DNA from: an uncultured Acidobacteriota bacterium
GTDB lineage: Bacteria > Acidobacteriota > UBA6911
Reading direction: 5' to 3'
Assembly (NCBI GenBank): GCA_963809485.1
Contig: CAWEJX010000020.1
Coordinates: forward strand, 448,001-512,000
Length of the DNA stretch: 64,000 nucleotides
In this document: piece after piece, positions 20,168 through 63,503 of the stretch
Layout: the number at the start of each line of letters is the position of its first letter
Numbering within the stretch: the first letter of the stretch is position 1
Program-made: the position numbers and the translations under genes
The notes under the pieces: generated by a model
Told to the model about the DNA's origin: nothing
What the model saw: only the letters and a program-made list of their open reading frames with translations
Databases searched by the model: none

Positions 20168-21844
20168 TTACCTCCATTTGTCAATGGAAACGGTTATGGG
20201 TCTGTACATATGCCAGGCCTGCATCATGGGGCTGGCGTCGCCTCCCGCGACAATGACATGAACAGTGCCGGGTCTGAATACACGATTTTCAACGCTGTCA
20301 GGCTTACCAGCGGTATCCGGAGTATCTCTGAAATAATGGGAGGTCCGTAGTTCGCCAAGGGGTTTTGTGGCATGTTCAACCAGGTAATCGGCTACTCCCT
20401 GTTTGGTATATCCTTGAGCCTTCAATATCTCCGCACGCTTTGGCGATATGATAATGGCAGCGCCGCTTGGAAGCTCAAACTCAGCAATGTCTTCTGCAAC
20501 ATGCTTTAGCGTAAAACGCACATGGCCATAATTGCCGGCGTGTGCCCAGCCTCCGGTAAACATTGTGAGAGTGTTGTCCTCTTTTTTAAATCCCTGTGAT
20601 ACGCTTAGAAACTCCCAGGGGCTTTGCTCCTCAAACTCAGCGAACATAAATGGCCAGGTGCTGATGTTACCCACAACCGACATCATATTTATGCCGGACA
20701 CTCCTCCGCCCAGATTAGTGATAAATAAACGCAGGGCACGGCCCATGGCAGCGTTGGCATAGTTGCCTGGACCCAGCACAGAAGTCCCGGCATTCATCTC
20801 CAGCTCCTTGCTGATGGGCCCGTTTACAACCTGCATAAAAGAGAACGCATTTGTGGACCGCACAAGCGAGTTGGTTTTATTGTGCAGATCGTAGGCCTCC
20901 AGGGCAGCCAGAAGCACCGGCATATGGCGGGGCTCACAACCTGCCATGACGCCGTTGATAGCAACTTTCTCCACCGTGACACCAAGGCCTTCTGGCGTTA
21001 AGGCTTTGATAACTACGGTGTCCGGTTTCTGACTCGTACCCCGTAACATAGCCGCCACGCGTGCCTCTGTGGGGGGAACAATCGGCAGACCGTCACTCAG
21101 GCCATGAGTATGGAAATATTGCTGAATTTCATCAAAGCTGCCGTTGGTCATGATTCGCGGTCTTTCCGGCGCATCGATGAAACCGGTTTTTTGTTCATGA
21201 GCCTCCAGAGGGAGTGTAAGGCATCCCAGAATATCCTCGATAGCCTTGCTCTCCTGGGATGGGCTCATAGTGTCTGCAGGGAAAGGGATCGCAACATAGC
21301 GCACTTCCGCTCCCTGTCGCTTGCGGGTAGTGTCCGCAACAGTTAATAAAGTGTCATACATCAACACGACACCCGGCAAACCCATTTTTTCAAGCTTTGC
21401 CGACCACTGGAAGGCATAGGAAGTGGTGGATGAGGACGGGGCACCGGCATAGATGAAGGCATCGGCATTGGCCTTCATTTCCTTCCAAAGCTCCGGATCA
21501 TCTAAAGAATATCCGGTATTGCGTCCTTTGATCGTTACCGTTGCATCGGGCTGGCGCTCTCGTATTACGTCGGCGATCTTTGAAAAAATAGTTTCAAATC
21601 CGGTGCCACTGCCCCAGGAATTGATAATATAGATCCGCGTTCTTTTCAGGGATGACAGCCTGGGGCTTAATGGAATGCGCTCGATTTTTGGCCAGATGCC
21701 CCGTGGATCGAGTACCGAGTATACGCCTTCCATATTTTTTTCATCCCGTTCTGCTGCGGGCACCAATGAAGACAGATTAAGCAAAACGATAGCAATCAAG
21801 GAGCATAAACTCTTTACATACACAGTATGTCTTTTAGACACCAT
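20168..21844 (-). CDS. Exported UGSC-family-like protein (Ser/Thr variant, no Sec or Cys motif)
   Basis: Signal peptide, SDGLPIVPPTEARVAAML, VAINGVMAGC, VVNGPI, ANAAMGRALRL, ends SIDKWR. Paralog of 57884-59611 and 61863-63503. Confidence 0.8.
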   Translation of the reverse strand: MVSKRHTVYVKSLCSLIAIVLLNLSSLVPAAERDEKNMEGVYSVLDPRGIWPKIERIPLSPRLSSLKRTRIYIINSWGSGTGFETIFSKIADVIRERQPDATVTIKGRNTGYSLDDPELWKEMKANADAFIYAGAPSSSTTSYAFQWSAKLEKMGLPGVVLMYDTLLTVADTTRKRQGAEVRYVAIPFPADTMSPSQESKAIEDILGCLTLPLEAHEQKTGFIDAPERPRIMTNGSFDEIQQYFHTHGLSDGLPIVPPTEARVAAMLRGTSQKPDTVVIKALTPEGLGVTVEKVAINGVMAGCEPRHMPVLLAALEAYDLHNKTNSLVRSTNAFSFMQVVNGPISKELEMNAGTSVLGPGNYANAAMGRALRLFITNLGGGVSGINMMSVVGNISTWPFMFAEFEEQSPWEFLSVSQGFKKEDNTLTMFTGGWAHAGNYGHVRFTLKHVAEDIAEFELPSGAAIIISPKRAEILKAQGYTKQGVADYLVEHATKPLGELRTSHYFRDTPDTAGKPDSVENRVFRPGTVHVIVAGGDASPMMQAWHMYRPITVSIDKWR

Positions 21845-47900: not shown

Positions 47901-48599
47901 AACAACGTGTTCGACCGCAGTGTCAACAAGTACATGTCGACCTATTCCCGGCCAATCGTATGGACCACCTCGCTGAACTACGTGCTGCCGAAGCTGGCAG
48001 TAAACAAGGTGCTGTCGATGGCGATTCGCGATTGGAGTATCGGCCTCGTTTTGGATTACTCCAGCGGCAGATTGATTCAGGTTCCAGCAGCTTCGTCGAC
48101 CAGCGTGACCTCCCTCTACACCTTCCAAAACACTTTCGCGAACCGGGTTGCGGGTCAGCCGTTGTTTCTGCGGACTGTGAGAAACGCTGATGGGACCAAA
48201 TCCACGATGCCCCTCGACACCCTCAATAACCGAGGCGCATTTGACCCTCTCACCGATTTCGTGTTTAATCCGGCGGCTTGGCAAGATCCGCCCGCAGGCC
48301 AGTATAGTACCGCGGCGGCATTTTACAGCGACTACCGGTACCCGCGTCATCCCTCGGAGAAGCTGAGCATAGGGCGGATCTTCCGGCTCGGGGAGGGCGC
48401 TACCCTGAGTATTCGGGCCGACTTCATTAACATACTGAACCGCATGGTATTGGGGGATCCCCTCTTGACGCGGACCCCTGCAAATGCCACCCAGAATTGG
48501 TCGAGCTCAGGCATTACATCTTCCGGCTTTGGACGCTACAACGCGACTGCCGCCAACTCGCAGCGCAATGGCTCCATAGTCGCGCGGATTCAATTTTAA
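44944..48599 (+). pseudogene. TonB-dependent receptor (Oar-like, carboxypeptidase-regulatory N-domain) with about four frameshifts
   Basis: AQSDRGTITGTVSDPAGA, NFAAEYGQAGGG, KSGTNKLHG, FAQDSWK..KLTLDYGLRWD, PRLGAAY, terminal ARIQF. Frame changes near 45345, 46445, 47600 and 47715. Confidence 0.85.
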
Positions 48600-51114: not shown

Positions 51115-51433
51115 GCTCCTGATTTGATGAATTGCATACAGTTACTAATCAGTTCATAGATAAGCCGACATAGGAATGGGCAACCCGAACAAAGCCAGCC
51201 ACGAATTTCACAAAAAAACGTTGTTCGTGCAGGGGCCGAAGGCCAGCCCGACGCTTAGTGGAATTCGTGGCAAGTTGTGCTTATGCCTGTCGATGGTTTA
51301 TATCCCATGAATGTCCCCTTACCAATGAACCGATTAGTATCCAAATAGTGACATCATAAAAGACAAACACGGTGCCGGCGTTGCTGGTAACATCGCGATC
51401 ACAGTGCAGGAGAGGATCCGAAAGGAGAGATTC

Positions 51434-53029
51434 ATGGGAGCCAAGAGGCAAAAAGCGCATCTTGCAAGAAGAGATTTTCTCAAAACAGCGGCCGCAGGCG
51501 CAGGAGGGGCCGCTTTGGCCGGATTTGGCGCGAGCGAAGCGGGAGCCGTGCAATTCGGCGAGGTTCGGAAATGGGACTACGAGGCGGGAATCGTCGTCCT
51601 GGGAATAGGCGGAGCGGGTCTGGCCACAGCCATAGTTGCCCGTGATCTGGGAACCGATGTCCTCATGCTCGAGAAGGCGAAGGAATCTCACGCCGGGGGC
51701 AACTCCCGAGTCTCGATGCAGGGCTTCTGGTGTCCGCCAGACTATAATCAGGCCGTGATCCATCAAAGGGCGCTCAATGACGGATTTCCGGTACCGGATG
51801 AGGTGATTGAAGCCTATCACCAATACACGACAAAGAACCCCGACTGGCTTAGAAAAATTGGCGCCCAAGTCATACAGCCCGCAAGCGGTAACGCAAGCAG
51901 GGCCTCGTACCCGGAGTTCCCCGGCGCTGAAAGCGCGGCTGTGTGCTTTCTCGACAACGGGAAAGGACAGGCGGGGTCAGGGTTCCAAAGGCTCTGGACG
52001 ATGCTCAGGGACAGCGCCGTGAAGAGGCAAGTCAAAATCATGTATGAAACACCCGGGATTGAATTGATCCAGGATTGCAAAACGAGGGAAATCCGCGGAG
52101 TGGTCGCCGACAGGCAGGGTAAAAGGATATACGTCAAGGCCAAGAAAGCTTTGGTTTTGTGTACCGGAGGATTTGAGAACAACCAGGGGATGATTCGGGA
52201 CTATCTTTCGATGCCGTGCGGATACCCATTTGGCACTCCGTATAACACGGGAGACGGCATAAGAATGGCGATGGCGGTGGGGGCCGACCTTTGGCATATG
52301 GACAGTCAAGCAGGCCCCACTCTCAGCTTCAAACCGCCGGATTTTGATTTTGCATTGGGCGGCGGAGGCGCTCCGCGTAATCGGGGATTTATCTGGGTTG
52401 CCAAGGACGGAACACGCTTCATCAACGAAAACACGCCCAGCAAACACGGCAAGATAGCTTACCATGGCACATACATTCAGCTTCCTACCCCCCTGCCGAT
52501 ACATTCGATTTTTGACGAGGCGGGGAGAAAGAGCGGGCCCCTCTTTACACTCGGCGGCAACATGGGTTGGAATACAATTATCGCGCAATACAAGTGGAGT
52601 GATGACAACAGCGTAGAACTTGCGAAGGGTTGGATCACAAAGGCAGACAGCATACGGGAACTGGCGGCTAAAATAAAAAAGGATCCGGACGCGCTGGAAA
52701 AAACCCTGGCCACCTGGAACAAATCCTGCGCGGCGGGCAACGATTCGGAGTTCGGCAGGCCCAGTGATCGAATAGCTCCAATTCAAATCCCACCCTACTA
52801 TGCCTTGGAGCTTGTTCCTACGTTCACAAACACGCAGGGCGGACCCCGACGCAACAAGAATGCTCAAATATTGGATCCATACGGCAAGCCTATCCCGAGG
52901 CTTTACTCGGCTGGAGAACTGGGTTCCCTATGGAGCTGGAACTACCAGGGCGCCGGCGACTTTGCGGAGTGTCTCGCTTTCGGGCGCATTGCGGGCGAGC
53001 ACGCTGCCGCTGAAAAGCCCTGGTCGTAG
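51434..53029 (+). CDS. Tat-exported FAD-binding oxidoreductase (flavocytochrome c/fumarate reductase/3-ketosteroid dehydrogenase superfamily)
   Basis: ARRDFLK signal, VVLGIGGAG, LCTGGFENN, NTGDGIRMA, NTQGGP and IPRLYSAGE motifs. Confidence 0.88.
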   Translation: MGAKRQKAHLARRDFLKTAAAGAGGAALAGFGASEAGAVQFGEVRKWDYEAGIVVLGIGGAGLATAIVARDLGTDVLMLEKAKESHAGGNSRVSMQGFWCPPDYNQAVIHQRALNDGFPVPDEVIEAYHQYTTKNPDWLRKIGAQVIQPASGNASRASYPEFPGAESAAVCFLDNGKGQAGSGFQRLWTMLRDSAVKRQVKIMYETPGIELIQDCKTREIRGVVADRQGKRIYVKAKKALVLCTGGFENNQGMIRDYLSMPCGYPFGTPYNTGDGIRMAMAVGADLWHMDSQAGPTLSFKPPDFDFALGGGGAPRNRGFIWVAKDGTRFINENTPSKHGKIAYHGTYIQLPTPLPIHSIFDEAGRKSGPLFTLGGNMGWNTIIAQYKWSDDNSVELAKGWITKADSIRELAAKIKKDPDALEKTLATWNKSCAAGNDSEFGRPSDRIAPIQIPPYYALELVPTFTNTQGGPRRNKNAQILDPYGKPIPRLYSAGELGSLWSWNYQGAGDFAECLAFGRIAGEHAAAEKPWS

Positions 53030-54096: not shown

Positions 54097-56493
54097 ATGG
54101 CAGATAACCAGCCGTGGACTTGGGAGATACCGGAAACGGATGAGAGCATTAAACGCAACATGTTCCCCCGACAGGACGGATATGACAGGGTGAGCGGCAA
54201 GGCCGTGTTCACCAGAGATGTCTACCTTCCGGGAATGGTGTATGCGAAAATTCTCACCTCGCCTTATGCTCATGCAAAAATCGTAAAAATGGATACAAGC
54301 CAGGCGGAGGCGCTCATAGGTGTACGGGATATCGTCAAATATGACGACCCGGACGTTGTGGATGAAAACGATACTCAGGTGCAGCAGTACAATAGTCTCA
54401 CCCTTCCCGGCATCAGCGACTTTTACAATCATCCCATGGGAGTTGTGGTGATTGCCGACAGCGAGGAGATATGCGACCGGGCGCTGCGGCTGATCAAGAT
54501 AGAATGGGAGGAGCGGCCGTTCATCCTGAATATGGAGGAATCACTGAAGCCGGATGCCCCAAAGATTTGGACCGAGGCGCTGCGCTTTCAGCCTACGGCC
54601 AAAGAGCCCAACAGGTACATAACGCGTGAACAGGAAGTTGGCGACGTCCAGAAGGGTTTCGCCGAAGCCGATAAGGTGCTGGAGTACACCATAAAGCGGG
54701 CTCCGAACACAACGGCAGGCGTCGAAGCCATCGTCTGTGTGGCCCATTGGAGGGGAGAGTTTCTTGACATTTGGGTGCACCACCAGGGCATCCTGCAATC
54801 GAATCTCAGTTCTCCCAACAATGCAAGAGGTATCGCCGGCAAGCGAAAACCAAATCCTGCTCTAACCCACTGGTCTAAAATAACGCTTACGATGCCCTAT
54901 CAGGGTTCATGGTTCGGCGGAATAAACCACATCGCTTGTTCCGTTTCGCTTATCCGTCTCGGCGCCATCCTGGCCAGGAGGGTCGGGAAACCGTTGAAAC
55001 TGCTGTATGACGAAAGCCAGTTCTATATCAATGGCGAAGAAACCGGCATGTTTAAATGCAAGGTGGGAGCCAAAAAGGACGGCACCATCACCGCCTGTTA
55101 CTGGCACATGATGGGATCGAGGAATCCGGTCTTTGAGAAGACGTATGAATGCACCCGCATACCCAATATCCGAGGAACCCAGGAGACGGCGTTCACTAAT
55201 ATGGGACACATCGTTTGTTTCCGGGACGGCACTTCGGGAAGCATCCCTCATCAGGTTATGATTGACCGGGTAGCGGCTGAATTCGGCCTCGATCCGACCG
55301 AAGTGGCGCTGAAGAACGATGGCTGCCGCGGACACGACTGGGATTGGGTCACCCAATACCAGAAAGACAATGGTTTCCCGCAAAGGTGGAGCCTCAAAGA
55401 GGTCCTTGAAAAGGGCAAGAAAGCCATTGACTGGGACCGGAAATGGCACGCGCCCGGAACCAAAAAGCTTGCCAATGGGAAGATGCACGGTATGGGATTC
55501 ATGTACATTAATCAATGGGCATGCACCACAGGCGGAAGTCTAGCGTCTTTGATGCTTCGCGACGGCAAAGTCGCCATCGTGGGTCTGCGCTGCGATCCGG
55601 GAGTGGATTCGGTATCCGGCTTCCGGCAGTGCGTGGCCGCGGCGATGGGACTGAAATACGAAGATACGGTTATTCACGAGCATCGATCCGACAACAGCAC
55701 GTTCCGTTTTGCCCCGCCGGGTGGTTCCCTGGGCACCATCATGACCGTTCCCCAATTGATAATTGCCGCCAGGGAGCTAAAACAAAGGATCCTGCAAGCT
55801 GCCATAACGTCCCCGCCGGCCGCCATGATGCGTCCTGCGCAGCCCGCTATGTTCCCGGGCAAAAAGACCGAGGATCTCGATATCAAAGACAGCATGGTAT
55901 TCGAGAAGGCAAATCCAGGGAATAAGAAGTCAGTGATCGAGGTGTTCCGCTCCTCGTCGAGCAGCGACAATTCGGGCATCGCTCATCCCGCTGCCGGCCG
56001 GGTATCGGGACTGACTGCGGATGGGAAGCCGGATCCGACGTACTACATTATGAGCCGGCAAGCCCACTTCATAGAGGTAGAGGTGGATACCGAAACCGGG
56101 CAGGTTGACATAACCAATACGGTTTGCGTCAACGACGTGGGTCACTGCTTTAATCCTGAAGGCGTCATGGGACAACAGTATGGCGGCGCCGTGATGGCCT
56201 TCGGCCGAAGCGCAACCGAGGAGAAGGTGTTCTGCCCGAATACCGGAGTGGCGCTCAATTATGATCACATAAACTACCACATTGGAACGATGAATGACTT
56301 TGCGCCCGTCCAATGCATCCTTAACGAGAGTCATTTGGGATATTCGGCGTATGGCGCATTAGGCATGGGTGAAAACGTCGGCGCGAGCCTTTCCGGAATC
56401 ACTTCTTCCGCCATATACAACGCCATAGGCAAATGGGTCCTTGACTTTCCCACCACCCCGGACAAAGTCCTCAAAGCTCTGGGCAAGATATAA
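54097..56493 (+). CDS. Molybdopterin-binding large subunit, xanthine dehydrogenase family
   Basis: DGYDRVSGKA.FTRD, SPYAHAKI, EVEVDTETGQV, GQQYGG, GMGE and AIYNAIG motifs. Confidence 0.9.
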   Translation: MADNQPWTWEIPETDESIKRNMFPRQDGYDRVSGKAVFTRDVYLPGMVYAKILTSPYAHAKIVKMDTSQAEALIGVRDIVKYDDPDVVDENDTQVQQYNSLTLPGISDFYNHPMGVVVIADSEEICDRALRLIKIEWEERPFILNMEESLKPDAPKIWTEALRFQPTAKEPNRYITREQEVGDVQKGFAEADKVLEYTIKRAPNTTAGVEAIVCVAHWRGEFLDIWVHHQGILQSNLSSPNNARGIAGKRKPNPALTHWSKITLTMPYQGSWFGGINHIACSVSLIRLGAILARRVGKPLKLLYDESQFYINGEETGMFKCKVGAKKDGTITACYWHMMGSRNPVFEKTYECTRIPNIRGTQETAFTNMGHIVCFRDGTSGSIPHQVMIDRVAAEFGLDPTEVALKNDGCRGHDWDWVTQYQKDNGFPQRWSLKEVLEKGKKAIDWDRKWHAPGTKKLANGKMHGMGFMYINQWACTTGGSLASLMLRDGKVAIVGLRCDPGVDSVSGFRQCVAAAMGLKYEDTVIHEHRSDNSTFRFAPPGGSLGTIMTVPQLIIAARELKQRILQAAITSPPAAMMRPAQPAMFPGKKTEDLDIKDSMVFEKANPGNKKSVIEVFRSSSSSDNSGIAHPAAGRVSGLTADGKPDPTYYIMSRQAHFIEVEVDTETGQVDITNTVCVNDVGHCFNPEGVMGQQYGGAVMAFGRSATEEKVFCPNTGVALNYDHINYHIGTMNDFAPVQCILNESHLGYSAYGALGMGENVGASLSGITSSAIYNAIGKWVLDFPTTPDKVLKALGKI

Positions 56494-56503
56494 GAGGAGC
56501 ACT

Positions 56504-57466
56504 ATGAAGACATGGAAGAATTTTGCGCATGTAAATGCCAAGACACTCAATGAGGCGGCCGCGCTTATGCAGAAAGGCAACGCCGCAATAATTGCCGGCG
56601 GCACCGATCTGCTGGGCACATTAAGGTTTGAGATTCTCCCTACCCACCCGGAAGTTGTGATTAACCTCAAAAGCATTTCCGGGCTGGACTACATCAAGGA
56701 AGAAGGAGGTCTGCTGAAAATAGGCGCTCTGACGCGGCTGGAAGATATCGCCAGAAGCCCTGTCGTCCGGGCCAGGTACCAGGCGCTGGCCGAGGCGGCT
56801 CACCGGACAGCCTCTCCCCATATCCGGGAAATGGGGACTATCGGCGGCAATATCTGCCAGCTCAACCGCTGCTGGTACTTCCGCAATCCCGACAATCGCT
56901 TCAACTGCATCCGCAAGGGAGGCAAGACCTGCTTTGCCCTGAGCGGCGAGAACCGATACCACTCGATCTTCGGCGCTGTTAAGATGTGTGTAGCGGTAAA
57001 TCCCAGCGACACTGCGCCTGCGCTGGTAGCGCTGAACGCCAGGATAAAGACCAACCGGCGGACTCTCGCTGCCGAACAGTTCTGGGACATGGCTGTGCCG
57101 GGATCAACCGTCCTGGCAGCCGGTGAGATCGTCACGGAAATTCAGGTGCCGGCGTCAGCCGCAGGGGCCAAGAGCGCCTTTATAAAGTTTGCCATTCGCA
57201 AATCGATAGATTTCCCTATTGTCAACTGTGCCGCAGCCATAAGCGGAGAAAATGTTCGGGTATGCCTGAACGCCGTTCACAACAAGCCCTACCGGGCAAT
57301 CAAGGCCGAGGAAGCCATGAAGGGCAAACCCATCAACGAGGCCAATGCCGAAGCCGCCGGCGAGGCCGCCATATCCGGCGCCAAGTCGCTTCCCGGTGAC
57401 AGAAACAAGTGGAAGATCCAGATCGCCAAGGTAATGGTCAAGAGGGCGATCGTCGGATGCTCGTGA
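56504..57466 (+). CDS. FAD-binding medium subunit with [4Fe-4S] insert (PaoB/HcrB-like)
   Basis: IAGGTDL, IREMGTIGGN, RCWYFR..C..GGKTC..CVAVNPSD. Confidence 0.9.
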   Translation: MKTWKNFAHVNAKTLNEAAALMQKGNAAIIAGGTDLLGTLRFEILPTHPEVVINLKSISGLDYIKEEGGLLKIGALTRLEDIARSPVVRARYQALAEAAHRTASPHIREMGTIGGNICQLNRCWYFRNPDNRFNCIRKGGKTCFALSGENRYHSIFGAVKMCVAVNPSDTAPALVALNARIKTNRRTLAAEQFWDMAVPGSTVLAAGEIVTEIQVPASAAGAKSAFIKFAIRKSIDFPIVNCAAAISGENVRVCLNAVHNKPYRAIKAEEAMKGKPINEANAEAAGEAAISGAKSLPGDRNKWKIQIAKVMVKRAIVGCS

Positions 57467-57578: not shown

Positions 57579-57800
57579 ATGAAGAGTCTCAGCTGCCCAA
57601 ACAGGGAATGTCCACTGGCGGGAAAAGCCGCTTTCGGAAACATCATCGGCCACGGATTCTACAAAACGAAGTGGGGGCGTCGTCGTCGATATCGTTGCGG
57701 CACTTGCGGCAAAACCTTCTGCTCCAATTCCGGCACGCCCTACCATCGACTTCAGCATCGTCGCACAACTTTCGATGAGGTTGCCACTCTCAGCGCTGTG
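57579..57800 (+). mobile_element. IS1-like (InsA-type Zn-ribbon) transposase N-terminal remnant
   Basis: CPNREC..GNIIGHG..RRYRCGTCGKTF..GTP.HRL, truncated. Confidence 0.7.
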
Positions 57801-57883
57801 GGGTACACCTTATGCTTGTTATGATTAAGTGCCGTGCAATCGTGAGGTTTTATAAGGTATAGTTTCAGAAAGGAGACAAGACA

Positions 57884-59611
57884 ATGAAAAGCAGAATATG
57901 CTGGTTTTTGACGGGAGCCTTTTTGGCAATGGTTGTTTTCGTGGGATCTGTGTTTCCGGCGGCTGAAGCCAAGATAACGGTTCTGAATCCGCTAGGCATA
58001 GCCCCTCCGATACGCTTGGTGCCCATGGCGCCGCGTCTCGATTCCCTGGACGGGAAGACGGTATACATCATCAACATAGGTATGGGGAATACGTTCCTGC
58101 CCGGGACTCAGAAGGTGCTTTCCGAGCGGTATCCCAAAACAAACTGGATTTATAAAGACAAGGCTGGCAGTTACTTCGATGACGATCCGAAGCTGTGGGA
58201 AGAGATCAAGGCAAAAGGCCACGCAATGATCGGGGGGGTAGGCCATTGAAGCACGTGCGCACCGGCGGTCGCCGGCCATTGTATTACAGTGGAGAGATTG
58301 GGCATTCCGACAGCTGTCTTGATCACCCAGAGATTTGTAGACATGGTAAAGGGGATTGCTTATAAGAAGGGAATGCCGAACGAGCGATTTATTTACACAC
58401 CTCATCCTGTCGCCACCAGGACGGTGGAGGAGTGCGAGAAATATAATAGGGGCAATGACCCTGTGACCGGTAAGCCCATTGTAGACGAAATTATCGCGGC
58501 GCTGACAAAGCCGCTGAGTGCCGAAGACAAAAAGACGGGATTTGTGACACGGCCGCCGCGGTCTCGGCTTCTGGAGCCCGACACTCCAACGAATCTAGCG
58601 CAGCTTTATTATAAGAATGGATGGACTGACGGGCTTCCCATCGTGCTTCCGACGGAAGAAAGAGTTGCGGAAATGCTTAAGGGAACAAGTCATGATAAGA
58701 ATGAAATCGTGGGGACGATGCGTCCCTCGCCGCCTCACGAGGCCTGGGAGTTTGACGTGGAGATGGTTGCGACAAACGCTGTGATGGCGGGCGCCAAACC
58801 GCAGCACTTGCCGGTAATCCTGGCACTGGCATCAACTGGAACAACCTCCCTCTTCACTTCTACCACCTCCTTCGCCAGGATGGTGGTCGTTAGCGGCCCT
58901 ATACGGGAACAGATCGATATGAACGCCGAGATAGGCGCCATGGGTCCGTGGAACGAATCCAATGCCGTTATTGGAAGGGCGTGGACATTGATTTCCAAAA
59001 ACCTGGGGGGAGGTGGAACTCGGGGCGAAACCTATTTAGGCAGCCAGGGGAACAATCTCAACTATAATAATGTCTGTTTCCCGGAGAGAGAGGATGCGTT
59101 GCCCGCCGGGTGGAATCCTCTCCACGTGCAAAAGGGTTTCAAAGCGGGAGATAGCGTCGTCAGCACGTTCAGCGGTTGGAGCCTTATAAACGGCGGCGGA
59201 TGGATAAGGCCTCGCCATGTGCACATTCAGCAAATGCTGACGGGGTTGTTCCAGAGCGGAGGGAATGGCGGCAGTGCTATGGTTTTGTTGGATCCGATAG
59301 GGGCCAAAGATTGCCATGATGAAGAAGGCTTCGAAACGAAGGAAAAGCTTAGCGAGCATCTTAAAAAGAACGGTACTTCTCCGGCTGCTTCATACTTTAG
59401 GCGCCGCGGCGACGATCTGAAAAAGGCCAAGGAAGGGGTTGAGCCCTTTGCAACCTGGCTGAAATTACCTGAAGGCTCTTTCGTGCCGGTGTCGCCCTTC
59501 GGGCCTAAGAATCCGATCGAGATACTCGTCGTCGGCGGCGCAACGAATGCTTTAATGATGGTTGGAGATTTCAGTTACGTAGCAAGCGCTTCAGTGGACA
59601 AGTGGAGATAG
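57884..59611 (+). CDS. Exported UGSC-family selenoprotein (in-frame TGA read as Sec122, USTC motif), ~575 aa
   Basis: ORFs 57884-58249 and 58289-59611 are in frame and separated only by TGA in GH-U-STC-APAV. SECIS-like hairpin follows. Collinear with two uninterrupted paralogs. Confidence 0.85.
58250..58285 (+). promoter_or_regulatory. Putative bacterial SECIS element
   Basis: CCGGC-GGTC-GCCGG hairpin (58262-58275) whose G-starting loop begins 18 nt after the UGA. Confidence 0.65.
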
Positions 59612-59686: not shown

Positions 59687-60300
59687 GGGCGTGCGACATA
59701 AATGTGGGTATAAATTAACGATTTCTTTTTATGCCTCCCTATTCTGAATGCTATAATAGCATTCAGAATAGGGAGGCGCTATGGCTGACACCCTCGAAAA
59801 CCTCGAAAACCGAAGAAGTGATCTATACCAGCAAATGATGGCCCTCGGTGACTTTCGACCAGGAACGATCTCCGTCAATTACCGTAAGTGCGGCAAATCA
59901 AAGTGTGCCTGTTCGCAACCGGGACATCCGGGACATGGCCCCCAATACCTTTGGAACACTACGAGCGGAGGAAAAAGCCGCGCGCAAAGTTTGCAGCTTG
60001 GGCCGCAACTGGAGAAAACGCGGATGGAATTGGAGCATCACAATATTTTTCTCTGCCTTTGCAAAGAACTGGTTGAAGTTAATGAAAGGATTTGCAGGCT
60101 ACGGCCCGTTGTCCCGATCAAGGATGAAAAGGAACTCGATGCGCTGAAAAAAAAATTGCAGAGGCAGTTTGCTGGGAAGCTGCGCAGGAAATAGATCGGG
60201 TCGTGCAGCGGGTATTGCGAGATGTCGAACAACGTGGGCATCTCGACCTGGAGGCCAGCGAGATGGCCATTCGCGCCACTTCGCACCGCATAGGCGAATG
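59687..60300 (+). mobile_element. ISKra4-like element remnant: left end, DUF6788 ORF (59781-60194) and the first codons of the transposase
   Basis: End GGGCGTGCGACATAAATGTG; FRPGTI...RKCGKSKCAC..HPGHGP; A-run near 60147, then EIDRVV..LDLEASEMAIR, truncated. Confidence 0.65.
59733..59777. promoter_or_regulatory. Perfect 22-bp inverted repeat covering TATAAT and the RBS of the DUF6788 ORF
   Basis: GCCTCCCTATTCTGAATGCTAT-A-ATAGCATTCAGAATAGGGAGGC, ATG at 59781. Confidence 0.75.
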
Positions 60301-60316: not shown

Positions 60317-60925
60317 TTAACCTCGAAGGTATCTGGTTGCATCTTTTGTAAGTGGGTAGAGCAAGACAGCTTTCCTGGACAAATGGGCTTTGAACTCGCG
60401 ATCCAGTTTGCCGCGGCCTTTGGTGTAGCCGACCAGGAGCCAATTCGCGGCACGGTAACAGGCGCCGGTATACCGCTCGGAATCCACGAAGCTTTCCAGC
60501 AACAGCGGCTGATAGGCGTACAGCCGCTGCCAATCGGCTGCAATTCGTTTCGCGGCAAGCGCCGGCAGCCGTGATGCTAAATTGCGCACGTGGACCCATG
60601 GAAAAATCACAAAACGTATGTTGTTTAGGATATAGCAAAGGTTGCGTTCGCGTTCCTTGCAGTTCCATCCGATCCACCGGTCCCGCGCTTCCACACGCCA
60701 CGCTGCCCCCGCAAAGGAAAGACAGGCGATTGGCTGTCCGGCGCGGATCACAAAATACTTGATGTGCGGCCCGACCGGCACGCCGTATCCCAAGTAGTGG
60801 TAGCGCTCGACATACTCGTTCCACAACTTTTCTTGATCGAGATTGCCTGTTCCACTGACAACCTGGAATGAGGCCGTCGCGATATCTTGCGGACCCAATA
60901 TTGCCAACGGCCTCGGCGCAGATTG
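60317..60925 (-). pseudogene. DUF4338 (DruA-like, IS-associated) domain, 5'-truncated
   Basis: LWNEYVERYHYLG, ARDRWIGW, NNIRF.IFPWV..NLASR, LLESFVD and GACYRAANW..VG.TKGRG motifs. Confidence 0.8.
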
Positions 60926-60929
60926 CTCT

Positions 60930-61125
60930 GTGTGCAGAGAGGATTTTCCCGAAGGAACCACCGCGACGCCTTGCGCCATTCGTGCCCGTATCCCATGGCT
61001 GCGGGATTTGGGCGATTGCGTGAATGTTCCCGGCGCTCTTCCCGCTGATGTAGGCGGCAGCGGCTTTCGCGCGTGAGCGCCGGGCATCCCGGATGATTGC
61101 AGGGATGCGGCGGGGCGAAGGGCAT
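60930..61125 (-). pseudogene. Phage-type HNH endonuclease N-terminal remnant
   Basis: MP.APPHPC.HPGC..L....RC..H...GYGHEWRKAS..FLRENPLC breaks off before the HNH core. Confidence 0.75.
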
Positions 61126-61514
61126 TAGGCGTATTTCCTTTTGCGGATGATTTCCCTGACGATCGCGGAGGTTCGATCATCATCAAAGGGATTCCTTCCT
61201 GGTAGCGCGGTGTGATCTGATTCCGCTGCTTTCTGATGGCAGCTTTTGCACGTGCATTGAACCCAAATCGGCCCGCTCAGATCTTCGCCGAGCAGGCGTC
61301 CGAGTCCTTCGGCGATGCAGTCAAACTCTGGCCGGAGAAACTCGTAAACCTTCGGCGAGAGGCGGTTGCTGTTCCCCATTAGGGCGCCCAGCTGACGCAG
61401 CTTCCGGAAAGTAAACGCCGGCACCCTGATTTCTTTTCCTTCCGGAGTGACCAAAGGGTGTCCCCATTCTGGGACTACAGGGGAAAGCTGAGGAAATGCA
61501 GCGGCTGAGGTCAC
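61125..61514 (-). CDS. Hypothetical protein, possibly phage-derived
   Basis: 129-aa ORF whose stop codon overlaps the HNH start, contains CxCxxC. Confidence 0.4.
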   Translation of the reverse strand: MTSAAAFPQLSPVVPEWGHPLVTPEGKEIRVPAFTFRKLRQLGALMGNSNRLSPKVYEFLRPEFDCIAEGLGRLLGEDLSGPIWVQCTCKSCHQKAAESDHTALPGRNPFDDDRTSAIVREIIRKRKYA

Positions 61515-61862: not shown

Positions 61863-63503
61863 ATGAAAACAAGGAGAGGTGTGAGAGAACATCCGGGCGC
61901 AGGCGCCTGGATACTGGTGGTGGTGTTGATGGCGGTGGCGGCCGGCGCCTGCGCGATGCGATCAGAGGAACTTAAGGCTCTCGATCCGCGCGGATTCTGG
62001 CCGGCCGTCGAGCGGATTCCTTTGACCCCACGGCTGCCCAGCGTAAAGGATCAGCGATTCTATATCGTTATGTCCTGGCCGACCAACTCGGGCTTTGATA
62101 CTGTGGTCAAGGATCTGGAGGGCCTCCTCAAGCAGCGCGGCGCCAAAGAGGTCACCATCAAGCGCCGGAATGTGAGCTATTCAGAAGACGATCCTCCATT
62201 GTGGGCTGAGATGAAGGAGAAATGCGACGCATTCCTTTATGTGGCGGCGCCCTCTTCATCGACCACGTCGTATGCCTTCAAATGGAGCGCGAAACTCGAA
62301 AAAATGGGCCTTCCCGGCGCCGTGGTGAATTTCGACGAACTCAACAGCGTCGGGGACACCACGAATGTGCGCGAAGGCGCGTTGGTGCGCCGTTCGGCTT
62401 TCGGCTACCCGGCTGAAACCATGGCAAAACCGGCCTATGACGCAGCTGTAAACCTTGCCGTCGAAAATCTAACCAAGCCTTTGACGGCCGACGAAAAAGC
62501 CACCGGAATCACCCAGCCCAAGCCGAGGCCGGACGTGTTCGCAACCGGCAATTTCGACAGCATTCAAAAGGCCTTCTACGAGGCTAAAATGACGGACGGC
62601 TTGCCGATCGTGCCGCCGACCGCCGAACGTGTGGCCGCAATGCTTAAAGGCACAAGCCATCCAGCCGACGAAGTTGTGGCCGAGGCATTGATGCCCGAAG
62701 GGCTGAAGGTCACCGTGCGCCAGGTGGCGATCAATGCAGTGATGGCCGGCTGCCTGCCCGAGCATATGCCGGTTTTGCTGGCCACTATCGAGGCGTATCA
62801 GAAACACAATCTGAACTCGATTCTGCGCTCAACCAATCCGTTTTCCTTCATGCAGGTGGTGAACGGGCCGATCGCTCAACAAATCAAGATGAATTCGGGC
62901 ACCGGCGCAATAAGCCCCGGCAATCGAGCCAATGCCTCAATGGGGCGAGCTTTGCGCCTGTTCATCATCAATCTCGGAGGCGGCGAGCCCGGCGTAAACT
63001 TGATGGCGGTAATCGGAAATGTGTCCAGCTATTCCTTCATGTTTGCCGAGAACGAAGCAGAAAGCTCCTGGGAGCCCTTGAGTGTCAGCCAGGGTTTTAA
63101 GAAAGGGGAAAGCACGCTGACTTTCTTCACCGGCGGCTGGGCCCATTCGGGCAACTACAGTTTTGGCTATGCCAGCGAAACAGGGCTGGATGAAGTGGCG
63201 CAGGATATCGCGCGTTACCAGATGAGCGTCGGCGCCACGATCATCGTCTCTCCCAAGTACGCTGAGGAATTTCAGCGCAAAGGCATAAGCAAGGCCGCCG
63301 TTGAGACTTATCTGCAAACCCACGCGACAAGGGCTGCCGGCAGAACCAGGCCGGCACAGGGCGGCCAGGCCGCGGCGAAGCCGGTTCAGGCGTTCCGCGA
63401 AGGCACAGTCAAATTAGTCGTCGCCGGCGGGCATGCCAGTTCGATGATGCAGGCATGGAGCATGTATCGGCCGCAAACTGTATCGATCGACAAATGGCGC
63501 TAG
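61863..63503 (+). CDS. Exported (possible lipoprotein) UGSC-family-like protein, Ser/Thr variant
   Basis: Hydrophobic signal with AGAC, APSSSTTSYAF, TDGLPIVPPT, AINAVMAGC, ANASMGRALRL, ends SIDKWR. Close paralog of 20168-21844. Confidence 0.82.
   Translation: MKTRRGVREHPGAGAWILVVVLMAVAAGACAMRSEELKALDPRGFWPAVERIPLTPRLPSVKDQRFYIVMSWPTNSGFDTVVKDLEGLLKQRGAKEVTIKRRNVSYSEDDPPLWAEMKEKCDAFLYVAAPSSSTTSYAFKWSAKLEKMGLPGAVVNFDELNSVGDTTNVREGALVRRSAFGYPAETMAKPAYDAAVNLAVENLTKPLTADEKATGITQPKPRPDVFATGNFDSIQKAFYEAKMTDGLPIVPPTAERVAAMLKGTSHPADEVVAEALMPEGLKVTVRQVAINAVMAGCLPEHMPVLLATIEAYQKHNLNSILRSTNPFSFMQVVNGPIAQQIKMNSGTGAISPGNRANASMGRALRLFIINLGGGEPGVNLMAVIGNVSSYSFMFAENEAESSWEPLSVSQGFKKGESTLTFFTGGWAHSGNYSFGYASETGLDEVAQDIARYQMSVGATIIVSPKYAEEFQRKGISKAAVETYLQTHATRAAGRTRPAQGGQAAAKPVQAFREGTVKLVVAGGHASSMMQAWSMYRPQTVSIDKWR

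What the first reader, a model, noticed from the sequence alone, without database searches (positions are those of the whole stretch)
57884..59611. Hidden selenoprotein: in-frame UGA in a U-S-T-C motif joins two ORFs into one exported UGSC-family protein
Seen: ...GGC CAT TGA AGC ACG TGC GCA CCG... gives GH-U-STC-AP and the frame stays open to 59611. The downstream ORF has only a GTG start with no clear RBS. A CCGGC-GGTC-GCCGG hairpin has its loop 18 nt after the UGA. Two uninterrupted paralogs in the window (558 and 546 aa) align across the TGA. Known: bacterial SECIS elements lie just 3' of the UGA with a G early in the apical loop, and UGSC-type UxxC selenoproteins have no known function. 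Notable here are the signal peptide, the USTC variant and the fused two-domain form. Gene callers will split this gene.
Basis: partly seen in the sequence, partly recalled or inferred. Interest (0 to 1): 0.82.

Follow-up and report, generated by a model that had tools for sequence, protein, structure and literature searches.

The report
Exported two-domain UGSC selenoprotein gene
This is one gene, wrongly split by gene callers, whose internal UGA most likely encodes selenocysteine, and it belongs to a family of unknown function with more than 40 such copies in this genome.

Summary
Window 57884-59611 is one 575-codon frame with a single in-frame TGA at 58247-58249, in the motif G-H-U-S-T-C. 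A 5-bp hairpin (loop GGUC) follows it and meets the published bacterial SECIS constraints.

The selenoprotein reading is well supported:
- The genome holds selA, selB, selD and tRNA-Sec.
- TGA is still the commonest terminator of long frames.
- The N-terminal domain matches Pfam UGSC (85.5 bits).
- 41 of 59 paralogs in this genome carry TGA at the same column. A hairpin follows in 27 of those 41, against 1 of 12 non-Sec paralogs and 7.4% of control codons.
- All 14 homologous stretches examined from other phyla also have TGA there.
- Contigs from four public runs cover the codon, with no difference listed.

The fused form is common, with more than 5,800 database relatives. The closest intact homologs have Leu or Met at the site, not Cys. 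USTC marks a subfamily.

New here: the unnamed 350-aa C-terminal domain is the conserved partner of UGSC. It is encoded next to stand-alone UGSC genes in 3 of 3 loci examined. The expansion is genus-wide, and most copies have signal-peptide-like N-termini.

The function is inferred, not shown: a selenol/thiol oxidoreductase.

The parts
57870..57875 (+). Shine-Dalgarno-like AAGGAG, 8 nt before the start codon
   Evidence: Read directly from the sequence.
57884..59611 (+). Complete selenoprotein gene: 575 codons plus TAG stop, with one in-frame TGA
   Evidence: Translation with TGA=U is open from ATG 57884 to TAG 59609-59611. Table 11 splits it into 121 aa and 440 aa.
57884..57970 (+). Predicted signal peptide (residues 1-29, MKSRICWFLTGAFLAMVVFVGSVFPAAEA)
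   Evidence: The best 12-residue window has a mean Kyte-Doolittle hydropathy of 2.62. AF2 pLDDT is below 50 for residues 1-25. Of 85 full-length sequences (84 database homologs plus this protein), 70 have 0-4 residues before this point. This is a heuristic; no SignalP was run.
57980..58441 (+). UGSC domain (residues 33-186)
   Evidence: Pfam PF24696 E 6.3e-24, 85.5 bits, profile positions 2-157 of 172. NCBIfam NF041046 scores 70.1 bits, below its cut-off of 125. The AF2 model shows an alternating strand/helix pattern, with U122 between strand 114-120 and helix 125-138.
58247..58249 (+). Sec codon (UGA, residue 122), first residue of the U-S-T-C motif
   Evidence: TGA sits at the same column in 41 of 59 paralogs and in 14 of 14 spanning stretches from other genomes. 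Contigs of 4 runs cover it and no difference is listed there (55 further differences were not shown).
58256..58258 (+). Cys125 codon (TGC), presumed resolving cysteine of UxxC
   Evidence: Cys is at this column in 38 of the 41 TGA-bearing paralogs; the three tandem W-U-G-A-A-T copies lack it.
58262..58275 (+). SECIS-like hairpin: CCGGC / loop GGUC / GCCGG
   Evidence: 5-bp stem, 4-nt loop starting with GG, 17 nt between UGA and loop, -8.3 kcal/mol. This meets the four bSECIS constraints quoted in PMC13188914. In all four runs laid, 58261 is G instead of A, which adds a sixth pair with C58276 (-11.7 kcal/mol).
58276..58292 (+). Second, adjacent hairpin CCAUUGU/auu/ACAGUGG, overlapping the GTG at 58289
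   Evidence: Predicted in the MFE and centroid folds and by my hairpin scan. Its role is unknown and I did not test whether it is conserved.
58556..59608 (+). C-terminal conserved domain (about residues 225-575) of no named family; the partner domain of UGSC
   Evidence: No Pfam hit even at E 10. No PDB hit by sequence profile. No convincing fold match (TM 0.20 or less). It is homologous to stand-alone proteins encoded next to stand-alone UGSC genes (E 4e-28, 4e-38, 4e-37). D249, N298, R365 and the A-E-x-E motif are the columns best kept across paralogs.
20168..21844 (-). Paralog without Sec (558 aa; A-P-S-S-S-T at the Sec column)
   Evidence: Pfam UGSC 51 bits. 31% identical to the gene over residues 12-575.
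61863..63503 (+). Paralog without Sec (546 aa from ATG 61863; frame open from GTG 61698)
   Evidence: Pfam UGSC 33.3 bits. ATG confirmed at 61863. 54% identical to the other window paralog.

Best explanation
Window 57884-59611 is one gene for a 575-residue selenoprotein. SelB and tRNA-Sec decode UGA-122 as selenocysteine, directed by the hairpin that starts 12 nt after the codon.

The product has three parts:
- a cleavable N-terminal signal peptide, so the protein is probably exported;
- a UGSC domain with the redox motif U122-S-T-C125 at the start of a helix;
- a 350-residue C-terminal domain of no named family.

That C-terminal domain is the conserved partner of UGSC. In other genomes the two are separate, adjacent genes.

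Most likely mechanism (inferred, not shown): the selenol of U122 attacks an oxidised group or substrate adduct held by the C-terminal domain. C125 resolves the resulting selenenyl-sulfide, and an external reductant re-reduces the U-C pair. For the cytoplasmic split form, that reductant would be the thioredoxin-reductase-like flavoprotein encoded beside it.

The gene is one of at least 41 TGA-bearing paralogs in this genome. The family is expanded across its whole genus.

My confidence is about 0.9 that this is a real Sec-decoded single gene. It is about 0.4 for the oxidoreductase mechanism.
For: Shown directly:
- One open frame with a single TGA and a good ribosome-binding site only at 57884.
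- Pfam UGSC domain spanning the TGA.
- tRNA-Sec, selB, selA and selD are all present, and selD itself carries a TGA.
- TGA ends 839 of 2,037 frames of 400 codons or more, so there is no genome-wide reassignment.
- TGA, never TAA or TAG, sits at the same column in 41 of 59 family loci. An independent Pfam scan of the genome gives 58 matches: 40 with one TGA, 1 with two, 17 with none. Of the 40, 33 lie in open frames of 559-665 aa.
- A hairpin of at least 5 bp, with its loop starting 16-22 nt after the codon, follows 27 of 41 Sec sites. The figure is 1 of 12 for non-Sec paralogs at the aligned codon and 1,526 of 20,664 (7.4%) for other in-frame positions of the same genes. There are 21 different stem sequences, so pairing is kept while sequence changes.
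- A perfect-stem version of the published bSECIS constraints passes 21 of 41 Sec sites against 0 of 12 non-Sec sites.
- All 14 spanning homologous stretches in 10 loci have TGA at the column. The records are titled Desulfatiglans, Desulfobacteraceae, delta proteobacterium, Acidobacteriota, Chloroflexi and Betaproteobacteria.
- Contigs of 3 DNA runs and 1 RNA-library run cover the codon, with no listed difference. The RNA-library contig spans 57881-58477, across the TGA.

Partner domain:
- Stand-alone UGSC genes with TGA lie directly beside stand-alone C-domain genes in 3 of 3 loci examined: G015, G026 and G029.
- In G015, and in the syntenic region of this genome, a Pyr_redox_2 flavoprotein of about 306-357 aa sits immediately upstream.
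- In G029 the C-domain carries an N-terminal CPTC segment with a weak Thioredoxin_2 match (E 0.001, below the cut-off).

Export:
- 41 of 51 paralogs with an alignable N-terminus have a hydrophobic 12-mer (mean hydropathy 2.0 or more) before the mature domain.
- 2 more have RR motifs.
Against: - The window's hairpin alone is not better than chance: z -1.13, with 27 of 200 shuffles folding as well. Its window ranks 105th of 530 in its own gene.
- Rfam has no match.
- 14 of 41 Sec sites lack a hairpin by my criteria.
- No Cys homolog was seen at the column: 0 of 53 aligned paralogs, and 84 of 84 intact database homologs have Leu or Met. The classical Sec/Cys pair criterion is therefore not met.
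- The NCBIfam UGSC equivalog score is below its cut-off (70.1 against 125).
- Nothing shows translation. The RNA-library contig may be DNA, and contigs cannot show transcript ends.
- On function: the C-domain has no homolog of known activity.
- Its Cys398 is kept in only 15 of the 41 Sec paralogs, so a fixed U122-C398 relay cannot be general.
- Sec-less members keep the C-domain, so it can work without the selenol.
- No periplasmic reductant was identified.
- The paralogs are related, so the counts are not independent.
- The assembly is 95.7% complete with 7.3% contamination.
Confidence: 0.85

Rival explanations
1. The selenoprotein is real, but its role is not oxidoreduction. The paired domains would bind or sense a ligand, for example a soft metal or metalloid held by the selenolate and thiolate, or a periplasmic solute. 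The large exported family would then be a set of binding proteins.
For: - Most paralogs carry export signals, and the family is very large, as in families of solute receptors.
- The best local fold matches of the N-domain (probability 0.97-1.00 over 95-154 columns) are to domains of periplasmic sugar-binding proteins.
- Sec-less members keep the C-domain.
- One paralog lies beside an MFS transporter.
Against: - The recurrent neighbours of the 59 loci are oxidoreductases and catabolic enzymes, not transporters. They include xanthine-dehydrogenase-type Mo subunits, their FAD subunits, FAD_binding_2 flavoproteins, aldehyde:ferredoxin oxidoreductases, CoA-transferases and DHDPS-family proteins.
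- A thioredoxin-reductase-like gene sits next to the split form.
- TM-scores of the fold matches are low, 0.27 or less normalised by target.
Confidence: 0.12
2. UGA is a genuine stop. Two separate products are made: an exported 121-residue peptide and a 440-residue protein started at GTG 58289.
For: - Table 11 gives exactly these ORFs.
- Databases hold the 388-459-aa downstream parts as proteins.
- The hairpin alone is not significant.
Against: - I saw no ribosome-binding site before GTG 58289.
- The 13 codons between TGA and GTG are conserved as protein in paralogs and other phyla, and the Pfam domain spans them.
- The stop is always TGA, at one column, in a UxxC motif of a known selenoprotein family, with hairpins enriched behind it.
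- The Sec machinery is present.
Confidence: 0.04
3. The gene is a pseudogene or an assembly error: a nonsense mutation or miscalled base at 58247.
For: - The gene lies between mobile-element-like ORFs.
- Some family copies in the genome are clearly fragmented: 7 of the 40 TGA-bearing Pfam matches lie in open frames under 550 aa.
Against: - Contigs from four runs of four studies cover the codon with no listed difference.
- The frame is otherwise intact over 575 codons.
- The same TGA is present in 40 other paralogs and in distant phyla.
Confidence: 0.02

Closest known systems
UGSC-containing selenoprotein family (Pfam PF24696; NCBIfam NF041046 'UGSC family (seleno)protein')
   Same: - The domain is homologous (85.5 bits).
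- Sec is in a UxxC motif at the same profile column, followed directly by a hairpin.
- Function is unknown. The reviews list the family as predicted by bioinformatics only (PMC13188914 and PMC9312934, passages).
   Different: - The NCBIfam profile spans 147 positions, and stand-alone copies lie in open frames of 177-266 aa. This protein has 575 residues and an extra 350-aa domain.
- The motif is USTC, not UGSC.
- It has a signal peptide.
- Its score is below the NCBIfam equivalog cut-off (70.1 against 125).
'UGSC/Unknown_1 fusion' noted in the Global Ocean Sampling selenoproteome (Zhang and Gladyshev 2008, PMC2398784)
   Same: A UGSC selenoprotein fused to a conserved domain of unknown function (passages read).
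   Different: Figure S1A, which shows Unknown_1, is a supplement and could not be opened. I cannot say whether Unknown_1 is the C-domain described here. The paper reports no paralog expansion, no export signal and no split-gene neighbourhood in the passages I read.
Thioredoxin-fold UxxC/CxxC oxidoreductases (Trx-like, DsbA-like and Prx-like selenoproteins)
   Same: A two-residue-spaced Sec/Cys pair at the start of a helix, a presumed selenenyl-sulfide redox couple, and export in some members (DsbA-like). [quoted passage not shown]
   Different: The model's strand/helix order, with Sec after the third strand of the alternating run, and its fold matches point to a flavodoxin-like or Rossmann-like alpha/beta domain. 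No thioredoxin appears among the matches shown. No Trx-family Pfam hit appears even at E 10.
Substrate-specific selenoprotein B components of glycine/sarcosine/betaine/proline reductases (GrdB, PrdB)
   Same: This is a working analogy only. PrdB is listed with a UxxC Sec motif (PMC2398784 Table 2). In those systems a Sec subunit works with a partner subunit that holds the substrate, and thioredoxin reductase supplies electrons (the last two points are my recollection, not from any call).
   Different: No sequence similarity was found: no GRDB-family hit in Pfam scans at E 10 or less. The domain order differs. No pyruvoyl-forming partner was identified.

Membership tests
Bacterial selenoprotein gene (SelB-dependent UGA decoding) | In-frame UGA with the reading frame continuing and conserved on both sides | tested here: met
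   Conservation across the codon in paralogs and other phyla.
Bacterial selenoprotein gene (SelB-dependent UGA decoding) | bSECIS hairpin: 4-16 bp stem, 3-9 nt loop, G in the first two loop positions, 16-37 nt from UGA to the loop, energy -7.5 kcal/mol or lower (PMC13188914, Fig. 2 legend) | tested here: met
   5 bp, loop GGUC, 17 nt, -8.3 kcal/mol. The family-wide enrichment is 27/41 against 1/12 and 7.4%. Alone, the hairpin is not significant, and Rfam has no match.
Bacterial selenoprotein gene (SelB-dependent UGA decoding) | selA, selB, selC (tRNA-Sec) and selD in the genome | tested here: met
   tRNA-Sec on C19. selB 391 bits, selA 565 bits and selD 345 bits, all above their cut-offs.
Bacterial selenoprotein gene (SelB-dependent UGA decoding) | UGA aligns with Cys (or UGA) in homologs | tested here: inconclusive
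   UGA/UGA is met: 41 of 59 paralogs and 14 of 14 foreign stretches. Sec/Cys is not met: 0 of 53 aligned paralogs and 0 of 84 intact database homologs have Cys; the latter have Leu or Met.
Bacterial selenoprotein gene (SelB-dependent UGA decoding) | Selenium shown in the protein (75Se labelling or mass spectrometry) | not testable with these tools
   No proteomic data were available.
Pfam UGSC family (PF24696) | Score above the gathering threshold over most of the profile | tested here: met
   85.5 bits against 25; profile positions 2-157 of 172.
NCBIfam NF041046 UGSC_fam (equivalog) | Score above the curated cut-off (125 bits) and a single-domain protein matching a 147-position profile | tested here: not met
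   70.1 bits. The protein has 575 residues and a second domain.
Thioredoxin-fold oxidoreductase | Thioredoxin fold with the redox motif after the first strand | tested here: inconclusive
   The AF2 model (pLDDT 82.4) shows an alternating strand/helix domain with Sec after strand 114-120. Foldseek local matches are to sugar-binding-protein and flavodoxin-like domains, with no thioredoxin among the rows shown. I could not inspect coordinates.
Sec-pathway exported protein | N-terminal signal peptide: basic n-region, hydrophobic core, A-x-A site | tested here: inconclusive
   K2, R4, a hydrophobic core and A-E-A at residues 27-29. Hydropathy 2.62. No dedicated predictor was available.

The most novel reading that the evidence does not exclude
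This genus carries the largest single-family selenoprotein expansion I could find described. One genome has at least 41 UGA-bearing paralogs, and 33 of the 40 found by Pfam lie in full-length open frames. Most have export signals and two have twin-arginine motifs. They sit in islands of molybdenum hydroxylases, flavoproteins and aldehyde oxidoreductases.

On this reading, UGSC and its unnamed partner domain form a new two-part selenol-dependent enzyme system. Here the parts are fused, exported and diversified for many substrates. This genome's selenoproteome would be at least 47 genes by my partial count, near the published bacterial records of 57 and 63.
Probability: 0.4. Interest if true: 0.78.

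Novelty: new variant of a known kind. Interest (0 to 1): 0.62.

Why it matters
UGSC proteins are among the most abundant predicted selenoproteins in aquatic metagenomes. They have had no function since they were first noticed (PMC2398784 and PMC13188914, passages).

This locus gives three handles on that question:
- A conserved partner domain, fused here and a neighbouring gene elsewhere.
- A thioredoxin-reductase-like gene beside the split form.
- A genus in which the family has multiplied to 9-58 copies per genome, mostly with UGA. This points to substrate diversification and offers many natural variants to compare.

There is a practical point too. Every Sec-bearing member I saw in the protein databases is truncated at the UGA. 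Annotation therefore hides most of the family and undercounts the selenoproteome of these bacteria. I counted at least 47 UGA-bearing candidates here, against published records of 57 and 63.

Tried and rejected
- Rfam scan of 58150-58400 at E 10 or less gave only two chance-level hits and no SECIS family.
- Folding the window's hairpin region alone was not significant. The case rests on comparison.
- The C-domain has no identity so far. Pfam at E 10 gave nothing. NCBIfam gave nothing beyond UGSC. PDB search by sequence and by profile gave only E 0.4-0.9 noise. Foldseek against the PDB gave serine hydroxymethyltransferase rows with TM 0.21 or less and rmsd of about 15-20 Å, which I reject as meaningless.
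- The Atlas search with a natural homolog returned only unnamed stand-alone proteins of 350-369 aa.
- I tested whether U122 pairs with the conserved Cys398 of the C-domain. I reject this as a general mechanism: Cys sits at that column in only 15 of the 41 Sec paralogs.
- I tested whether the family are solute receptors of transporters. No transporter family recurs among the 382 neighbouring ORFs clustered.
- I tried to see whether this genome beats the published selenoproteome records. Four extra Pfam scans found only 6 further TGA-bearing candidates: selD, one Molybdopterin, two Pyr_redox_2 and two FlpD. The lower bound is therefore 47. That is not a record, and those six were not checked further.
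- Literature. Searches for 'UGSC'+'selenoprotein' (9 papers), 'selenoprotein'+'Methylomirabilota'+'selenoproteome' (2 papers) and 'Desulfatiglans'+'selenocysteine' (4 papers) turned up no description of this expansion or of the partner domain. I saw only listings and the passages cited.
- Haft and Tolstoy 2025 (PMC12013261) is not held. Deng et al. 2026 (Cell Rep) was not looked up. Either may bear on novelty.
- Supplements are closed, so Figure S1A of PMC2398784 was not seen.
- Complex prediction was not used. The natural split UGSC partners contain a TGA and cannot be given under code 11.
- I made no phylogeny of the paralogs.
- Read laying used contigs only, so they say nothing about transcript ends or expression level.
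Full report
**1. The observation**

TGA lies at 58247-58249, inside GGC CAT TGA AGC ACG TGC. With TGA read through, the frame runs from ATG 57884 to TAG 59609-59611 and gives 575 residues, with U122 in G-V-G-H-U-S-T-C-A-P-A-V-A-G-H-C. The ATG is preceded by AAGGAG at 8 nt.

Table 11 splits the frame into 121 aa and a 440-aa ORF that starts at GTG 58289. I saw no ribosome-binding site before that GTG.

The hairpin is CCGGC(58262-58266) / GGTC / GCCGG(58271-58275), and its loop starts at the 18th base after the TGA.

Both uninterrupted paralogs exist in the window. One is 20168-21844 (-), 558 aa. The other is 61863-63503 (+), 546 aa from its ATG. They are 54% identical to each other. They are 31% and 28% identical to the gene. 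They read A-P-S-S-S-T at the Sec column.

**2. Is the UGA selenocysteine?**

The machinery is complete. tRNA-Sec (anticodon tca) is on contig C19. selB scores 391 bits, selA 565 bits and selD 345 bits, each above its curated cut-off. selD itself holds one TGA. TGA has not been reassigned, because it ends 839 of 2,037 frames of at least 400 codons.

The N-terminal domain (residues 33-186) matches Pfam UGSC at E 6.3e-24. The NCBIfam equivalog reaches only 70.1 of the 125 bits required.

The strongest evidence is comparative. A tblastn search of the genome with the C-terminal domain finds 59 loci. At the column of U122:
- 41 have TGA;
- 12 have another residue, never Cys;
- 6 have no alignable N-domain.

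An independent scan with the Pfam UGSC profile finds 58 matches. Of these, 40 have one TGA inside, 1 has two and 17 have none. Of the 40, 33 lie in open frames of 559-665 aa.

The motifs fall into four groups (my tally of the rows):
- G-H-U-S-x-C: 13 copies, of which 7 are USTC;
- G/S-G-U-x-G/S-C: 10 copies;
- G-D-U-G-S/T/G-C, the canonical UGSC type: 15 copies;
- W-U-G-A-A-T: 3 tandem copies.

**3. The hairpin**

Alone it proves nothing. Its z-score is -1.13, and 27 of 200 shuffles fold as well. Its window ranks 105th of 530 within its own gene. Rfam has no match.

It does meet all four constraints of the published bacterial SECIS model (Fig. 2 legend of PMC13188914): a 5-bp stem, a GGUC loop, 17 nt of spacing and -8.3 kcal/mol.

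Across the family, a hairpin of at least 5 bp with its loop starting 16-22 nt after the codon follows 27 of 41 Sec codons. In 26 of these, G is in the first two loop positions. The same test passes 1 of 12 non-Sec paralogs at the aligned codon. It passes 1,526 of 20,664 other in-frame positions of the same genes, or 7.4%. There are 21 different stem sequences, for example GCCGGC/GCCGGC, TCGGC/GCCGA, CGGCGA/TCGCCG, GCCCGG/CCGGGC and GTGGTGGG/CCCGCCGC. Pairing is therefore kept while the sequence and the encoded residues change. The paralogs are related, so the binomial p of 3.5e-21 overstates the case.

**4. Other genomes and reads**

A pattern scan of one genome per species returned 11 loci. 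Their record titles name Desulfatiglans, Desulfobacteraceae, 'delta proteobacterium', Acidobacteriota, Chloroflexi and Betaproteobacteria. All 14 homologous stretches that span the column, in 10 of these loci, have TGA there: USTC, USSC, USLC or UGSC.

The stretch occurs nearly identically in metagenome assemblies of 15 studies. Contigs of three DNA runs and one RNA-library run cover 58247-58249, and no difference is listed there. In all four, 58261 is G rather than A. That change is synonymous and adds a sixth base pair to the stem. The RNA-library contig spans 57881-58477, across the TGA, but it may derive from DNA. One search did not show 55 further differences, so identity at the codon is likely, not proven.

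**5. What the databases hold**

More than 5,814 proteins match at E 0.001 or better among the 8,000 candidates scored. Of the 120 best hits, 36 are 388-483 aa long and cover only the downstream 67-77% of the query. These are the closest relatives (61-97% identity), so they are the downstream parts of genes split at the TGA.

The other 84 are intact, mostly about 590 aa. Several are named as Dehalococcoidales or Chloroflexi MAG proteins. They have Leu (82) or Met (2) at the Sec column, mostly as G-Q-L-D-T-C. Most lack the N-terminal extension: of 85 full-length sequences (these 84 plus the window protein), 70 have 0-4 residues before the mature domain.

It loses its force once the TGA-bearing relatives are read at the DNA level.

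**6. The C-terminal domain is UGSC's partner**

Residues from about 225 to 575 have no Pfam, NCBIfam or PDB relative. The AF2 model is good (pLDDT 82.4, pTM 0.77), yet no convincing fold match turns up.

In three loci examined, a stand-alone UGSC gene with TGA lies directly beside a stand-alone gene for this domain:
- G015, same genus: E 4e-37 over the first 200 residues;
- G026, another family of the class: 33% identity, E 4e-28;
- G029, another family of the class: 32% identity, E 4e-38.

In G015 the gene order is: xanthine-dehydrogenase-type Mo subunit (opposite strand), a 357-aa Pyr_redox_2 flavoprotein, UGSC, DUF6282, the C-domain, two DHDPS-family genes, then two fused paralogs. The same order is seen in this genome at C12:85-96.5 kb, where the copy looks frameshifted.

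In G029 the C-domain protein begins with a 190-residue segment that carries C-P-T-C. It has a weak Thioredoxin_2 match (E 0.001, 19.8 bits, below the cut-off of 27).

The Atlas search with a natural homolog found only unnamed stand-alone proteins of 350-369 aa, from Actinomycetota and Pseudomonadota.

I infer that the C-domain needs a thiol or selenol redox partner, and that in this gene the two are fused. That the flavoprotein reduces UGSC is inference from adjacency in one genus.

**7. Mechanism**

In the model, U122 sits between strand 114-120 and helix 125-138 of an alternating strand/helix domain. Together with C125, this is the usual position for a nucleophilic redox pair.

The columns best kept across the 59 loci are D249, N298, R365 and A-E-x-E at 400-403. 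Cys398 is kept in only 15 of the 41 Sec paralogs.

I therefore propose a selenol attack on a group bound in the C-domain pocket, resolution by C125, and re-reduction from outside. I reject a fixed U122-C398 relay. Nothing here identifies the substrate.

**8. Export and expansion**

Of the 51 paralogs with an alignable N-terminus, 41 have a hydrophobic 12-mer of mean hydropathy 2.0 or more before the mature domain. They typically follow M-K/R and precede an A-x-A-like site. Two others have S/P-R-R-A-F motifs typical of twin-arginine signals, and a few have a Cys after the hydrophobic core (heuristic only).

All 24 of 24 other genomes of the same genus have 9-45 UGSC matches. Only 2 of 16 genomes from other families of the class have any, one stand-alone copy each. 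By my count of the rows, about 139 of the 150 best-scoring matches listed carry one TGA.

Recurrent neighbours of the 59 loci are Mo-hydroxylase large subunits (a cluster of 10 ORFs), their FAD subunits (9) and a DUF4352-like small protein (7). FAD_binding_2 flavoproteins (5), CoA-transferases (5) and aldehyde:ferredoxin oxidoreductases (4) also recur. The window itself shows this pattern, with a Tat-signal flavoprotein at 51404-53029 and a Mo hydroxylase at 54097-57466.

**9. Comparison with what is known**

The reviews list the 'UGSC-containing protein' as a predicted selenoprotein of unknown function. The 2008 ocean survey ranks it among the most abundant families, with 255 Sec and 21 Cys forms, and mentions a UGSC/Unknown_1 fusion.

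The 2007 Olavius study found one UGSC gene in the delta-1 symbiont, and families of 2-12 selenoprotein genes at most. The published record selenoproteomes are 57 and 63 genes.

This gene is therefore a member of the Pfam family but not of the NCBIfam equivalog. What I did not find in print, in the three searches listed under Tried and rejected, is:
- the identity of the partner domain;
- the split-gene neighbourhoods;
- the export signals;
- the 40-fold expansion.

**10. Verdict**

The gene on its own is a new variant of a known selenoprotein family. The family context is the more interesting part.

Noticed in passing
G000:C4:342589-347500 (outside the window): Three tandem paralogs carry TGA in the motif W-U-G-A-A-T. 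They have no Cys three residues on and no hairpin of 5 bp or more by my criteria. Pfam UGSC does not match them at E 0.001 or better. They are either a Sec form without a resolving Cys or decaying copies.
   Followed up: partly
window 57579-57824, 59781-60194, 60317-61186: The gene is bracketed by three ORFs. One is an 81-aa Cys-rich ORF with no Pfam hit, which to my eye (recalled, not tested) looks like a transposase remnant. The other two are a DUF6788 ORF and a DruA-like ORF (PF14236). The 2-kb stretch occurs nearly identically in assemblies from bioreactor, marsh, soil and marine-sediment studies: 15 studies in all, with word shares of 0.6-0.76 in the 15 best runs. This hints at recent spread.
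   Followed up: partly
window 58261: All four public runs laid have G where the window has A. The change is synonymous (GCA to GCG) and lengthens the SECIS-like stem from 5 to 6 pairs (-8.3 to -11.7 kcal/mol).
   Followed up: yes
window 45419-48599: One outer-membrane beta-barrel protein (PF25183) appears split into two overlapping ORFs. 45419-46609 matches profile positions 1-238 and 46551-48599 matches 274-836. This may be a frameshift or an assembly error.
   Followed up: no
window 51404-53029 and 54097-57466: A FAD_binding_2 flavoprotein with a weak twin-arginine signal match, and a xanthine-dehydrogenase-type Mo enzyme with its FAD subunit, lie just upstream. The same kinds of genes recur near other family members in the genome.
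   Followed up: partly
G000:C12:203159 and G000:C4:294668 paralogs: Two paralogs have S/P-R-R-A-F-(F/L) motifs before the hydrophobic core, which look like twin-arginine signals. A few others have a Cys right after the core, which looks like a lipoprotein signal.
   Followed up: no
G000:C8:80982-81905; C20:1207473; C9:37319; C8:204772; C3:6544; C1:482159; C21:122872: Other candidate selenoprotein genes have one TGA inside a domain match: selD, one Molybdopterin, two Pyr_redox_2 and two FlpD. One further FlpD match has an in-frame TAG instead.
   Followed up: no
window 57869 (run X1): One contig of run X1 has a 17-nt insertion behind 57869 that repeats the ribosome-binding site and start-codon region.
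   Followed up: no
L039:4939-6576 (-), genome G029: A C-domain protein has an N-terminal C-P-T-C thioredoxin-like segment and is encoded directly beside a stand-alone UGSC selenoprotein gene. An IS110-family transposase lies nearby.
   Followed up: partly
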